A program made the position numbers and the translations under genes. A DNA stretch of 64,000 nucleotides from the human T2T-CHM13v2.0 reference genome, Homo sapiens: the NCBI RefSeq assembly GCF_009914755.1, contig NC_060947.1, one strand, 5' to 3'. The notes below the pieces were generated by a model. That model did not search any database, was not told the origin of the DNA, and saw nothing but the letters and a program-made list of their open reading frames with translations. Position 1 is the stretch's first letter, and the number at the start of each line of letters is the position of its first letter. Shown in pieces: positions 60,030-64,000 of this stretch.

Positions 60030-61669
60030 CAGAATACTTATTCTTCTCAGCTGCACATGGAAAGTTCTCCAGAATAGATCGCATATTAGGCCACAAACCA
60101 AGTCATAACAAATTTAAGAAGATAGAGATTGTATCAATTATCTTTTCTGACCACAATGGTATAAAACTAGATATTAATAAAATGAAGAATTTTGGAAACT
60201 TTACAAATACACAGAAATTAAACAACGGGCTTATAAATAATAAATAGGACAATTAAGAAATTAAATGGCAATTTTTAAAAATTTATTGAGCCAAATAAAA
60301 GTTGAAACACAGCATAACAAAACCTATGGGATACAGAAAAAGCAGTTATAAGAAGGAAGTTTATAGCAATAAATGCCTACAGCAAAAAAGAAAAAAAAAT
60401 CTCAAATAACCTAATATTGCACCTCAAGGAATTAGAAAAACAAGAACAATCTAAATCCAAAATTAGTATAAGAAGGAAATAATAAAGATCAGAACATTGA
60501 AAAAGAAATAGAGACTAGAAAAATAACAAAAGATCAACAAAACAAACAGTTAGCTTTTGAAAACATAAAGAAAATTGACAAACCTTTACCTGGACTAAAA
60601 AAAAGAAAATATTCAAATAAATAAAATCAGAGATGAAAAAGGAGATATTACAACTGATACCACAGAAACACAGAGAATCATGAGAGACAATTATGAACAA
60701 TGATATGCCAAAGAAGTGGATAACCTACAAGAATTTAAAAAGCTATCACACACATACAAACTACCAAGATTGAGTTAAGGATAAATAAAAAATCTGAACA
60801 GACCAATAATGAGTGAGAAAATTGAATCAGTAATAAAAATTCTCCCACCAATTAAAAAAAGGCCTACAATCTGATGGCCTCACTGATTAATTTTACCAAA
60901 CATTTAAAGAAGAGCTAATACCAATTCTTCTCAAACTACACCAGACAATTAAAGAAGAGGAAATACTTCCAAACTCATTTTGAGGCCAGCATGACTCTGA
61001 TATCAAAATCAAAAACACAACAAAAAAGAAATCTATAGGCCAAGATCACTGATGGACATAGATGCAAAAGTCCTGAACAAAATATAGTATCAAACCAAAT
61101 TCAACAACACATTAAAAGTATTATTCACTATGATCAAGTAGGATTTATCCTAGGGATGCAAGAATGTTTTAAAATACACAAATCAATAAATGTGACATAA
61201 CACATTAACAGAAAGAGGGACGAAAACTATATGAACATTTCAATAGGTTCAGAAAAAGCTTCTGATGAAATGCAACATCCCTTTATAATAAAAACTCTCA
61301 ACAAATTAAGTATAAAAGGTACATACCTCAATATAATAGAGGCCATATAGGGCAAACCCACAGCAAACATTATTCTAAATGGGAAAAATTTAAAGCTTTT
61401 CCTCTAAGATCTGGAATATGACAAGAATATTCACTTCCACCACTTCTATTCAACCTCGTACTAGAAGTCCTAGCCAGAGCAATTAGGCAGAGAAAAAATA
61501 AAGGGCATTTGAAATAGAAAAGAGAAAGTTAAATTGTCTCTGTTTGCAGATAACAAAATCTTATATATAGAAAGCTCTAAAGGCTTCATAAAAAACTATT
61601 TGAACTAATAAACAAATTAAAGTAACAAGATACAAAATCAACATACAAAAACTGATAGTGTTTCAAGAT

Positions 61670-61706
61670 CCTTCAATAGCTCAGTTGGTAGAGCAGAGGA
61701 CTGTAG
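61670..61706 (+). pseudogene. tRNA-Tyr(GTA) 5' exon retrocopy (37 nt), non-functional
   Basis: CCTTCAATAGCTCAGTTGGTAGAGCAGAGGACTGTAG matches vertebrate tRNA-Tyr CCTTCGATAGCTCAGTTGGTAGAGCGGAGGACTGTAG with two CpG transitions. It stops one base after the GTA anticodon. Confidence 0.92.
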
Positions 61707-62802
61707 AAGATTTCATCACAAAAACATCAAAGGCAATTGCAACAAAAGCAAAAATTGACAAATGAGATGTTACTAAAACTAAAAAGCTTCTGCACAGCAA
61801 AAGAAACTATTATCAGAGTGAACAGACAACCTACAGAATGGGAGAAAGCTTTTGCAATCTATCCATCTGACAAAAGTCTAATATCCAGAATCTACAAGGA
61901 ACTTAAGCAAATTTACAAGAAAAAAACATTAAAAAGTGGACAAAGGACATGAACAGACACTTCTCAAAAGAAGACATTTATGTGGCCAACAAACATATGA
62001 AACGAAGCTCAACATCACTGATCATTAGAGAAATGCAAATTAAAACCACAATGAGATACCACCTCATGCCATTCAGAATGGTAATTATTAAAAAGTCAAG
62101 AAACAACAGATGCTGGTGAGGCTGTGGAGAAACAGGAACACTTTTACACTGTTGATGGGAATGTAAATTAATTCAATCATTGTGGAAGACAGTGTGGTGA
62201 TTCTTCAAAGACCTAGAACCAGAAATACCATTTGACCCAGCAATCTCATTACTGGGTATATACCTAAAGGTATAGAAATCATTCTATTACAAAGATACAT
62301 GCATGCATATGTCCATTGCAGCACTATTCACAATAGCAAAGATATGGAATCAACACAAATGTCCATCAATGATAGAAGGGATAAAGAAAATGTGGTACAT
62401 ATACACCATAGAATACTATGCAGCCATAAAAAGGAATGGGATCATGTCCTTTGCCGGGACATGGATGGAGCTGGAAACCATTATCCTCAGCAAAGTAACA
62501 CAGGGAAAACAAAGAAACAAACACCGCACATTCTCACTTACAAGTGGGAGCTGAACAATGAGAACACATGAACACAGGAAGGGGAACAACACACACTGGG
62601 GCCTGTTGGGGGGCTGGGGGAGGGAGAGCATCAGTATAAATAGCTAATGCATGTGAGGCTTAATACCTAGTGATAGGTTGATAGGTGCAGCAAACTGCCA
62701 TGGAACACATTTACCTATGTAACAAACCTGCATGTCCTGCACATGTATCCCAGAACTTAAAATAAAATAAGATTAAAAATAAACAAATAGAAAAAGAAAA
62801 AA
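61707..62802 (+). mobile_element. 5'-truncated L1PA10/11-like element fused to the tRNA fragment
   Basis: Starts aagatttcatcacaaaaacatcaaaggcaattgc ([23 protein letters not shown]); 3'UTR aaatagctaatgcatgtgaggcttaatacctag; A-rich tail 62759-62802. Confidence 0.9.
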
Positions 62803-63146
62803 GTTCTTGTATGTATTCTGATAGGTAGTAGGGGTTTTTGTTTTCTAGCTATGTCATCAATTTCTAGTTTAAATGTGTTGTGGTGGATTGTATTTTGTGT
62901 TCTGTTGTTAGATTTTGGAACTTAAAATATTTTTACGCCTAACATTTGTTCAATTTTTGAGAATAGACAAGGATGTGTGAAAAGAAGGAATATTATCTAT
63001 TTTCAGGTATGTTGTTTGATGTATATTAGTTACATTTACTTCATTATGTTTTTAATGTCTTTTATAGCCTTAATTATTTTTGGTGATCTATCATGAAAGC
63101 AAAGTGTTGAAATGAATAAAATCTCCAGTTTCTAATGTGAAAAAAA
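62803..63146 (+). other. Probable L1 3' transduction
   Basis: Foreign T-rich segment between the L1 A-tail and the right TSD, with AATAAA at 63115-63120 and an A7 run 19 nt later. Confidence 0.75.
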
Positions 63147-64000
63147 GTAGTGTTTCTACACATTAATAGTGAACTATATGAAAAAGAAATCAAGAAAACA
63201 ATCCCATTTATAATAGTTATCAAAAAGTAAGATACCTAGGAATAAATCTAACCAAACTGGTGAAAAATATCTAAATTGAAAACTGTGAAACATTGATGGA
63301 AGAAACTGATGAGTACACAAATAAATAGAAATATATCCCCTGTTCATGGGTTGAAAAAATTAATTTTGTCAAAATGAACATACTACTCAAAGAGATCTAC
63401 AGATTTAATGCAATCCCTATCAAAATACCAAAGACATTCTTCACAGAAATATAAAATATAATCCTAAAATTTGTATAGAACCACAAAAGATACCAAATAG
63501 CCATAGCAATCTTGAGCTAAAACAAACCAAATTAAACAAGCAAACAAAAAACAAAGCCGGAGGCATCACACTACCTGACTTCAAAATATGCTGCAAATCT
63601 ATAGCAACCCAAACAGCATGGTATTGGCATAAAAATAGACACATAGAACAATGAAACAGAATAGGGAATACAGAAATAAATCAATGTATCTATAGCCAAC
63701 TAATTTTTTGACAATGGTACCAGGAACAAAAATTGGGAAATGACAATCTCTTCAATAAATATTGTTGGGAAAACTGGATATCCATATGCACAATAATGAA
63801 ACTGGACCCCTATCATTCACCATATTTGAAAATCAACTCAAAATGGATTGACTTAAAAGTAAGACCCAAAACTGTGAAAGTACTAGAAGGAAACATAGGG
63901 GAAATGCTTCATGACATTGGACTAGGCAATAATTTTTTAGATAAAGTCTCAAAAGCACAGGAAACAAAAACAATAATAGACAAATGGGATTACATCAAAC

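What the first reader, a model, noticed from the sequence alone, without database searches (positions are those of the whole stretch)
61656..63156. tRNA-Tyr 5' exon fused to LINE-1 exactly at the tRNA splice site
Seen: 37 nt of tRNA-Tyr(GTA), from nucleotide 1 to anticodon+1 (61670-61706), abut a 5'-truncated L1PA10/11-like copy in the same orientation. The whole unit interrupts an older L1 ORF2 and is bracketed by a duplicated target core tagtgtttc (61656-61664 / 63148-63156). Known: tRNA-Tyr introns begin after position 37, TSEN cleavage leaves the 5' exon with a 2',3'-cyclic phosphate that RTCB ligates, and U6/L1 chimeras have been attributed to RTCB ligation of cyclic-phosphate-ended U6 to L1 RNA. 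Inference: this is a genomic fossil of a tRNA splicing intermediate mis-ligated to L1 RNA and then retrotransposed, a tRNA-exon/L1 counterpart of U6/L1 chimeras. The next base (A) also matches mature tRNA position 38, so a 1-nt microhomology template switch is not excluded.
Basis: partly seen in the sequence, partly recalled or inferred. Interest (0 to 1): 0.88.

Follow-up and report, generated by a model that had tools for sequence, protein, structure and literature searches.

The report
tRNA-Tyr half fused to LINE-1
An old retrotransposon copy on the human X chromosome carries the first 37 bases of a tyrosine tRNA at its front end, one of a small group of such fusions that seem to come only from tRNAs that are spliced.

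Summary
Window 61670-61706 is the 37-nt 5' exon of tRNA-Tyr-GTA (35 of 37 identical to a gene; both differences are CpG to CpA). Sense L1 homology starts exactly at 61707. One target duplication brackets the whole 1483-bp insert. The last 340 bp of the insert is a 3' transduction from chr3. The exon is flanked by a 5-nt direct repeat, AAGAT, whose right copy is the start of the L1 part.

tRNA-half/LINE-1 chimeras are already in print (Law & Burns 2026, 21 loci, read as tRNA halves and twin priming). This locus is not in their table. In that table the only sense-oriented partial tRNAs are Tyr, Tyr and Arg-TCT, all from intron-containing families (Fisher p=0.005). I confirmed those three in the genome and found two more candidates (Leu-CAA, Ile-TAT). 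Four of the six carry a few bases of pre-tRNA leader.

So capture of a splicing-derived 5' exon is well supported for the class and moderately for this locus. RTCB ligation is not shown. The AAGAT repeat fits a template jump, or less likely a nested insertion, better. It is a new member of a known kind.

The parts
61350..61655 (+). Older L1 ORF2, left part of the interrupted target
   Evidence: Collinear with other old L1 copies in the window and in loci L036 and L073.
61656..61664 (+). Left copy of the target-site duplication, perfect core tagtgtttc
   Evidence: The flanks overlap by exactly these 9 nt in two independent old-L1 copies. A possible imperfect extension runs leftwards into AAAAA.
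61665..61669 (+). AAGAT: five bases between the TSD and the exon, identical to the first five bases of the L1 part
   Evidence: Read directly. It matches the upstream bases of none of the four T16-type Tyr genes (L011, L013, L014, L015). Origin unresolved: templated filler, short TSD, or a leader that matches by chance.
61670..61706 (+). tRNA-Tyr-GTA 5' exon, nt 1-37
   Evidence: 35 of 37 identical to gene L013, with both differences CpG to CpA. The pattern hits 27 places in the genome against 0 for the control.
61707..62759 (+). 5'-truncated L1 in sense: end of ORF2 plus 3' UTR
   Evidence: Homology to 6 of 6 L1 copies starts at 61707. In those copies the L1 context is GGCA|AAGA.
62760..62799 (+). 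Degenerate A-rich tail of the source L1
   Evidence: Read directly. It lies between the L1 3' UTR and the chr3-derived stretch.
62800..63139 (+). 3' transduced flank copied from chr3:141819203-141819541
   Evidence: It is the only other genomic match: 88% identity over query positions 1-340 (342 alignment columns). The match starts at aaagttctt and ends at ctaatgtg.
63115..63120 (+). AATAAA polyadenylation signal used by the read-through transcript
   Evidence: It lies 19 nt upstream of the point where chr3 homology ends and the A-run begins.
63140..63147 (+). A7 remnant of the poly(A) tail, then a G that probably already belongs to the target
   Evidence: Old-L1 copies read CAGTAGC at this place, so G63147 looks like ancestral target sequence.
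63148..63156 (+). Right copy of the target-site duplication
63157..63460 (+). Older L1 ORF2, continuation of the interrupted target

Best explanation
This is a single L1 retrotransposition event, tens of millions of years old. It copied a composite template made of the 5' exon of pre-tRNA-Tyr (nt 1-37), the last ~1.05 kb of an L1 RNA, and 340 nt of read-through sequence from the L1's former home on chr3, polyadenylated at a downstream AATAAA.

The L1 RNA was broken inside ORF2, between A and A of GGCA|AAGA. The tRNA piece is most likely the 5' exon released by the tRNA splicing endonuclease (TSEN), not a half of mature tRNA.

How the two were joined is not shown. [quoted passage not shown] I slightly favour this here, because the L1 start AAGAT was copied twice. 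Or it could be RNA ligation by RTCB before reverse transcription.

Shown: the anatomy, the single TSD, the exact junction and the chr3 origin of the 3' flank. Inferred: one event, the TSEN origin and the joining step.
For: One event:
- A 9-nt TSD sits exactly where old-L1 collinearity breaks.
- The insert ends in AATAAA, then 19 nt, then an A-run.
- A second insertion landing within 5 nt of an L1 5' end in sense is rare. I estimate about 0.04 such cases genome-wide for these families (my estimate, not computed in a call).

Exact junction.

Class evidence for a splicing origin:
- In Law & Burns Table S3, all 3 sense partial tRNAs are Tyr, Tyr or Arg-TCT. Among the 15 antisense partial tRNAs, 1 is from an intron family (p=0.0049). 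All three sense loci are flagged there as arriving together with their L1.
- I verified these three in the genome: L029, L065, L093.
- I found sense candidates for Leu-CAA (L116) and Ile-TAT (L148) that are not in the table.
- L029 carries the leader tgctt, identical to the 5 bases upstream of gene L026. L065 has gctt, L093 about tgt and L148 agga. These four therefore come from 5'-unprocessed pre-tRNA, not mature tRNA.
- Of 12 Tyr tailless retrocopies with a clear TSD, 11 keep at least 3 intron bases. The three Tyr chimeras keep 0, 0 and at most 1. So the chimeras used a different RNA species, one that ends at nt 37.

Precedent: Moldovan 2019 (PMC6789731, passages read) shows RtcB joining 2',3'-cyclic-phosphate U6 to 5'-OH L1 RNA.
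Against: - The exon in this window is flanked by AAGAT on both sides. A true leader would match the L1 start by chance about 1 time in 1000, and no extant T16-type Tyr gene has that leader. So this locus gives no direct proof of a pre-tRNA origin, and a separate 5-bp TSD cannot be excluded.
- The base after the exon (A) also fits A38 of mature tRNA-Tyr.
- Ending at nt 37 is generic for tRNA retrocopies of intronless families too.
- My own controls are underpowered: 0 sense chimeras among 16 half copies, where about 1 would be expected.
- L116 and L148 lack a demonstrated clean TSD pair.
- Three of the six junctions allow 1-3 nt of microhomology.
- The chr3 parent locus has no L1 today, so the 3' transduction presumes a lost source element.
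Confidence: 0.6

Rival explanations
1. The TSEN-cut 5' exon, ending in a 2',3'-cyclic phosphate, was ligated by RTCB to a 5'-OH L1 RNA fragment. The pre-formed chimeric RNA was then retrotransposed, like U6/L1.
For: - The junction is exactly after nt 37 with no added bases.
- In L029 there is no possible microhomology, because the source gene's intron starts with T while the chimera has A.
- The restriction of sense chimeras to intron families fits substrates of the tRNA ligase complex.
- The RtcB/U6-L1 biochemistry is established (PMC6789731, passages).
- In at least 5 of 6 chimeras the L1 part starts with A, as the 3' exons of the Tyr, Arg-TCT and Ile-TAT genes do (for the genes; for the chimeras).
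Against: - A pre-ligated RNA gives no reason for the L1 start AAGAT to be copied a second time upstream of the exon.
- End-to-end template jumping onto the same free exon predicts the same junction.
- The end chemistry cannot be read from DNA.
- A 2026 review of the tRNA ligase complex names only U6 and LINE-1 RNA as substrates of this 'pro-transposon' ligation (PMC13247085, passages).
Confidence: 0.25
2. Two separate events. A 5'-truncated L1 with its chr3 flank inserted first. Later a tailless retrocopy of exactly nt 1-37 of tRNA-Tyr inserted at the very start of that L1, with a 5-bp target duplication AAGAT.
For: - AAGAT flanks the exon directly on both sides.
- TC|AAGA resembles an L1 endonuclease site.
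- Tailless tRNA retrocopies are common in this genome, and 5 of the copies examined lie inside L1 bodies (L073, L090, L119, L135, L139).
- Leaderless copies of exactly 1-37 exist for Arg-TCT (L083, L094).
Against: - The duplication would have to begin at the very first L1 base, in sense. I expect about 0.04 such cases genome-wide (my estimate).
- Of 96 tailless copies, about 84 have repeats of 7-21 nt and none has a clear 5-nt TSD.
- 11 of the 12 Tyr tailless copies with a clear TSD carry a leader, and all 12 carry at least 2 intron bases.
- L116 shows a similar repeat next to the 5' end of its L1 part. That argues for a mechanism rather than a repeated coincidence.
Confidence: 0.1
3. The tRNA part is a 5' half of mature tRNA-Tyr, cut in the anticodon loop by angiogenin, RNase T2 or RNase L, or entered there by an internal template switch. 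This is how Law & Burns read tRNA/L1 chimeras in general.
For: - The A at 61707 equals A38 of the mature tRNA.
- There is no proven leader at this locus.
- Halves ending at 36-39 are the rule for intronless tRNAs.
Against: - It does not explain why sense orientation goes with intron-containing families (p=0.0049).
- It does not explain why L029, L065, L093 and L148 carry leader bases.
- In Law & Burns' table, all 14 partial tRNAs from intronless families are antisense.
Confidence: 0.12

Closest known systems
tRNA/LINE-1 chimeric insertions (Law & Burns, Cell Genomics 2026, PMC13174262; main-text passages and Table S3 read)
   Same: A half tRNA (1-37) sits at the 5' end of a 5'-truncated L1 within one TSD pair. 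Two of their 21 loci are sibling Tyr 1-37 and 1-35 sense cases, which I re-found as L065 and L029.
   Different: - This chrX locus is not in their table. The likely reason is that the 37-nt piece is not repeat-masked: the hub's annotation lists masking only from 61729.
- They describe the class as mostly antisense, made from tRNA halves by twin priming.
- Their main text never mentions Tyr, pre-tRNA or the splicing endonuclease (0 occurrences each).
- This locus is in sense and comes from an intron-containing family.
U6/L1 chimeric pseudogenes (Moldovan et al. 2019, PMC6789731; passages read)
   Same: A small Pol III RNA with a 2',3'-cyclic phosphate 3' end, in sense, joined without filler to a variably 5'-truncated L1. 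The whole is flanked by one TSD.
   Different: - U6 is a full-length mature RNA. Here the partner would be a processing intermediate.
- No biochemical evidence exists for exon-L1 ligation.
- The AAGAT repeat has no described counterpart in the passages I read.
Tailless tRNA retropseudogenes (Schmitz 2004, not held, known only through Noll et al. 2015, PMC5322556; passages read)
   Same: 3'-truncated, processed or unprocessed tRNAs are retroposed by L1 and break in single-stranded regions. This genome holds dozens of such Tyr, Arg-TCT, Leu-CAA and Ile-TAT copies with leader and partial intron.
   Different: Tailless copies have no L1 and no A-tail, and they are flanked directly by a 7-21 nt TSD. 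Here the exon is followed by 1 kb of L1 plus a polyadenylated flank.
5' leader-exon tRNA fragments of CLP1-mutant cells (Hanada 2013, not held; known through reviews PMC4052509 and PMC4931453, passages read)
   Same: An RNA species made of pre-tRNA leader plus 5' exon. This is the composition seen in L029, L065, L093 and L148.
   Different: That these fragments are mainly from Tyr is my recollection, not seen in a call. The window's own copy shows no certain leader.

Membership tests
L1-mediated chimeric retrocopy (U6/L1 type) | One TSD pair encloses both the small RNA and the L1 | tested here: met
   There is a 9-nt perfect core, and the flanks overlap by exactly 9 nt in two old-L1 copies.
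L1-mediated chimeric retrocopy (U6/L1 type) | The small RNA is in sense, directly abutting a 5'-truncated L1 with an A-tail | tested here: met
   L1 homology starts at 61707 in 6 of 6 copies. The A-run follows AATAAA.
L1-mediated chimeric retrocopy (U6/L1 type) | The insert begins with the true 5' end of the small RNA | tested here: inconclusive
   Five bases, AAGAT, precede nt 1. They equal the L1 start and match no Tyr gene leader.
L1-mediated chimeric retrocopy (U6/L1 type) | Both parts arrive together in phylogeny | not testable with these tools
   No primate genomes were available. Law & Burns flag this feature for the chr8, chr11 and chr14 siblings only.
tRNA/LINE-1 chimeras of Law & Burns | Half-length tRNA (about 1-37) next to the L1 5' end | tested here: met
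tRNA/LINE-1 chimeras of Law & Burns | Antisense orientation (their majority type, read as twin priming) | tested here: not met
   The locus is in sense. It belongs with the 3 sense partial rows among the 18 partial rows.
TSEN-derived 5' exon (tRNA splicing intermediate) | The tRNA belongs to an intron-containing family and ends at the 5' splice site with no intron bases | tested here: met
   All 12 intact Tyr genes have the intron after nt 37. The junction lies at 61706|61707.
TSEN-derived 5' exon (tRNA splicing intermediate) | Marks of pre-tRNA origin: a leader matching a gene | tested here: not met
   Not met in the window. Met in L029 (tgctt, the same as upstream of gene L026) and L065 (gctt), and plausibly in L093 and L148.
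TSEN-derived 5' exon (tRNA splicing intermediate) | 2',3'-cyclic phosphate at the 3' end; dependence on RTCB | not testable with these tools
   RNA end chemistry leaves no trace in DNA.
Tailless tRNA retropseudogene | The tRNA piece is flanked directly by its own TSD of typical length and has no A-tail | tested here: inconclusive
   A 5-nt repeat, AAGAT, flanks the exon. The repeats of about 84 of 96 tailless copies measure 7-21 nt and none is clearly 5 nt.
L1 3' transduction | A unique flank after the L1 tail, ending at a downstream poly(A) signal, with an identifiable parent locus | tested here: met
   A single other match lies on chr3, at 88% over query positions 1-340. AATAAA sits 19 nt before the A-run. 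The parent locus lacks an L1 today.

The most novel reading that the evidence does not exclude
Sense-oriented tRNA-half/L1 chimeras form a distinct class. The class is limited to the four intron-containing tRNA families (Tyr-GTA, Arg-TCT, Leu-CAA, Ile-TAT) and usually carries pre-tRNA leader bases. These loci would be germline fossils of TSEN-released 5' leader-exon halves that met broken L1 RNA in the nucleus. They would have been joined by the tRNA ligase RTCB, or by an ORF2p jump onto the cyclic-phosphate end. That would make them a natural, sequence-defined counterpart of U6/L1 that could settle the question of ligation against template switching.
Probability: 0.5. Interest if true: 0.75.

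Novelty: new member of a known kind. Interest (0 to 1): 0.58.

Why it matters
How L1 picks up other RNAs, by ligation before reverse transcription or by template switching during it, is still argued for U6/L1.

tRNA 5' exons are made by one known enzyme (TSEN), at one known base, with one known end chemistry. They are the normal substrate of the ligase implicated for U6/L1. If sense tRNA/L1 chimeras really come only from spliced tRNAs, they give a clean handle on that question.

They would also show that tRNA splicing intermediates and L1 RNA meet in germline nuclei.

For annotation, the locus shows that short unmasked tRNA pieces at L1 5' ends are missed by catalogues built on RepeatMasker. 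Three of the six sense cases I list are absent from the published table.

Tried and rejected
- ARAGORN and Rfam on the window find no tRNA. That is expected for a half and is not informative.
- A whole-genome search with Rfam tRNA scored only 63 candidates, all intronless. It was useless for finding intron-containing genes but gave coordinate anchors.
- 3'-exon mimicry: the L1 bases after the break (AGAUU in the window, AGACA in L029) cannot pair with the exon's anticodon-stem strand GAGGA. I judged this by eye and rejected it.
- 'Tailless insertion first, L1 second', with the exon's terminal TAG shared with the TSD and GTAG as a 4-bp L1 TSD. I rejected it: GTAG is ancestral old-L1 sequence (CAGTAGC), and the target copy probably extends into an A-run.
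- A source gene for a leader AAGAT: none among the Tyr genes of this genome.
- Extension of the repeat idea to other chimeras. L116 has ACAAGAGG, then 6 nt, then the exon, then ACAAGGAGG. L065 has a 4-nt TAGC repeat. L029, L093 and L148 have none. The picture is mixed.
- DRACH/m6A or RNase-specificity readings of the shared L1 break context: considered only, not tested.
- Papers not held: Schmitz 2004 and Hanada 2013.
- Searches for a printed link between tRNA introns or pre-tRNA and L1 chimeras found none beyond the papers cited. The PDF supplements of Law & Burns could not be read.
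Full report
**What is there**

Window 61670-61706 reads as the 5' exon of tRNA-Tyr-GTA. It matches gene L013 at 35 of 37 positions, and both differences (positions 6 and 26) are CpG to CpA. A 31-nt exon pattern with up to 3 mismatches has 27 hits in the whole genome and none for the reversed control. 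ARAGORN and Rfam do not call it, as expected for half a tRNA.

All 12 intact Tyr genes recovered have their intron directly after nt 37, and their 3' exon begins with A. In 6 of 6 independent L1 copies, homology to the window begins exactly at 61707. The L1 context in those copies is GGCA|AAGA.

The flanks belong to an older L1 ORF2 in the same orientation. In two independent copies of that old L1, the left and right flanks overlap by exactly 9 nt. So tagtgtttc is a true target duplication, and 61665-63147 is one insert. Alignment of the right flank to old-L1 copies shows that G63147 is ancestral target sequence (CAGTAGC). The duplication may therefore run on imperfectly into an A-run.

First, the insert does not end with the L1. 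After a degenerate A-rich tail (62760-62799) come 340 bases with only one other match in the genome, at chr3:141819203-141819541, at 88% identity.
- Homology starts at aaagttctt. On chr3 this is preceded by ctcttg, which is an endonuclease-like site.
- Homology stops at ctaatgtg, 19 nt after an AATAAA. In the window an A-run follows.
- This is the signature of a 3' transduction.
- The chr3 locus has no young L1 at that point today. So the source element was lost or never fixed, or the RNA was a three-part chimera.
- The 12% divergence suggests an age of some tens of millions of years (inference).

Second, five bases, AAGAT (61665-69), lie between the TSD and exon nt 1. They are identical to the first five bases of the L1 part (61707-11). 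None of the four T16-type Tyr genes has that sequence upstream.

**What is known**

Law & Burns (Cell Genomics 2026, PMC13174262) report 21 tRNA/LINE-1 chimeras. They describe them as mostly half-length (1-37) and antisense. They attribute them to tRNA halves made by angiogenin, RNase T2 or RNase L, and to twin priming. Their main text contains no mention of Tyr, pre-tRNA or the splicing endonuclease.

The chrX locus is not in their Table S3. The likely reason is that the 37-nt piece is unmasked.

Moldovan et al. 2019 show that RtcB can join cyclic-phosphate U6 to 5'-OH L1 RNA. They leave room for template switching for other small RNAs. A 2026 review of the tRNA ligase complex names only U6 and LINE-1 RNA as partners of this ligation. 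Three further searches found no paper that links tRNA introns or pre-tRNA to L1 chimeras.

In Table S3, 18 of the 21 rows are 3'-truncated tRNAs.
- Three are in sense with their L1: chr8 Tyr 1-37, chr11 Tyr 1-35 and chr14 Arg-AGA (anticodon TCT) 1-38. All three are from intron-containing families, and all three are flagged as arriving together with the L1.
- Fifteen are antisense. Fourteen of these are from intronless families and one is Ile-ATA.
- Fisher's exact p = 0.0049.

I re-found the three sense loci in this genome:
- L029 (chr11): TSD ataaactca. The leader tgctt is identical to the 5 bases upstream of gene L026. After the exon's 37 nt, L1 starts at once, with no possible microhomology, because that gene's intron starts with T.
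- L065 (chr8): leader gctt, then the exon, then one T, then L1 ORF1.
- L093 (chr14): about 3 leader bases, then the exon, then L1 ORF2, with a 1-nt A ambiguity.

Pattern searches with exons taken from stored genes gave these counts:

| Family | Hits | Control hits | Genes | Other copies |
|---|---|---|---|---|
| Arg-TCT | 32 | 0 | 5 | 27 |
| Leu-CAA | 11 | 0 | 5 | 6 |
| Ile-TAT | 67 | 0 | 5 | 62 |

For Ile-TAT I examined the 42 non-gene copies with at most 2 mismatches. I did not examine the 20 copies with 3 mismatches.

Among these copies I found two further sense candidates that are absent from Table S3:
- L116 (chr5): Leu-CAA exon followed by L1 ORF1, with 3 nt of possible microhomology (AAG).
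- L148 (chr3): Ile-TAT exon with leader agga, followed by L1 ORF2.

For neither did I demonstrate a clean TSD pair.

Controls with two intronless families gave 0 sense chimeras among 16 half copies (10 Thr-TGT, 6 Leu-TAG/AAG) and 1 antisense chimera (L171, which is in Table S3). About one sense case would have been expected, so this control is underpowered.

**Why the tRNA partner is probably the cut exon**

This genome is full of tailless retrocopies of these four pre-tRNAs. They carry a leader, the exon and part of the intron between TSDs of 7-21 nt. That matches the class described by Schmitz and by Noll.

Of 12 Tyr copies with a clear TSD, 11 keep at least 3 intron bases. The three Tyr/L1 chimeras keep 0, 0 and at most 1. 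So the chimeras drew on an RNA that ends at nt 37. In four of the six chimeras that RNA still has its 5' leader. This composition equals the '5' leader-exon' fragments known from CLP1-mutant cells (reviews only).

Ending at nt 37 alone proves nothing, because the intronless controls also stop there.

**The AAGAT problem**

For this locus the leader argument fails, and the repeat is formally a separate TSD around the exon. I weigh three readings.

(a) Nested insertion of a leaderless exon with a 5-bp TSD that begins at the very first L1 base.
- I expect about 0.04 such coincidences genome-wide (my estimate).
- None of about 84 measured TSDs is that short.
- 11 of the 12 Tyr tailless copies with a clear TSD carry a leader.

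(b) One event in which the L1 cDNA ended at AAGAT as a free end. Second-strand or fill-in synthesis copied those five bases before or after the enzyme moved to the exon.
- L116 has a comparable repeat beside the 5' end of its L1 part. L065 has a weak one. L029, L093 and L148 have none.

(c) A real leader that matches by chance, with a probability of about 1 in 1000.

I put one event at about 85% and the nested reading at about 10%. Reading (b) fits a template jump better than a pre-ligated RNA. So for this locus I do not favour RTCB ligation, about 25% against about 40% for a jump. Nothing in DNA can decide the end chemistry.

**Verdict**

The kind of element is already published, and this locus is an uncatalogued member of its sense-oriented minority. 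The splicing-intermediate idea is a new and testable reading of that minority. It is supported at the class level and not proven for this locus. The ligation step remains open.

Noticed in passing
window 61703-61713 and L029:1528-1538 (chr11:131.78 Mb): The two Tyr chimeras break their L1 parts in the same heptamer, GCA|AAGA, at two different ORF2 positions. Two random L1 sites share a 7-mer with probability about 1.8e-4 (a post hoc test). The Arg chimera breaks at CCA|AAAC. In at least 5 of 6 chimeras the L1 part starts with A, against an L1 A content of 40%. This may reflect a cleavage or pausing preference. Unexplained.
   Followed up: partly
L187/L188 (chr5:141,419,128, minus strand) and L186 (chr3:194,041,757, plus strand): Two candidate sense 5'-exon/L1 chimeras that are not in Law & Burns Table S3. 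One is Leu-CAA plus L1 ORF1, with a later Alu and an internal L1 deletion. The other is Ile-TAT plus L1 ORF2. Their TSDs are not established.
   Followed up: partly
loci L012-L036, L066-L074, L078-L104, L113-L160: Dozens of tailless retrocopies of pre-tRNA-Tyr, Arg-TCT, Leu-CAA and Ile-TAT. Their leader and intron bases identify the source gene; for example L012 comes from L011 and L017 from L016. Tyr copies nearly always keep intron bases. In 8 of the 24 Arg-TCT copies scored for a flanking repeat, the right-hand repeat begins directly after nt 37.
   Followed up: partly
L135, L136, L147, L148, L151, L157, L159 (Ile-TAT retrocopies): Seven independent Ile-TAT retrocopies read TTACA instead of TTATA, with C at anticodon position 36. 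This could be a reverse-transcription signature of a modified U36, or a lost gene variant.
   Followed up: no
L033 (chr2:218,731,540): A retrocopy of a complete unspliced pre-tRNA-Tyr, with leader, both exons, intron and trailer. It matches gene L019.
   Followed up: no
L030 and L031 (chr17:46.48 Mb and 47.09 Mb): The same tailless Tyr retrocopy, with near-identical flanks, occurs twice in opposite orientation. It presumably lies inside a segmental duplication or inversion.
   Followed up: no
Law & Burns Table S3, sheet tRNA (supplement file 2): In several rows the TSD columns appear shifted by one row. For example, the chr5:86372886 row lists TSD coordinates on chr6:81316914, and the chrX:107695404 row lists chrX:65017944. 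Readers should match TSDs by coordinate.
   Followed up: no
L076 (chr3:141,817,703-141,821,041): The parent of the transduced flank lies in an old L1M-like 3' region next to an Alu. No young L1 is present where the source element should have sat.
   Followed up: partly
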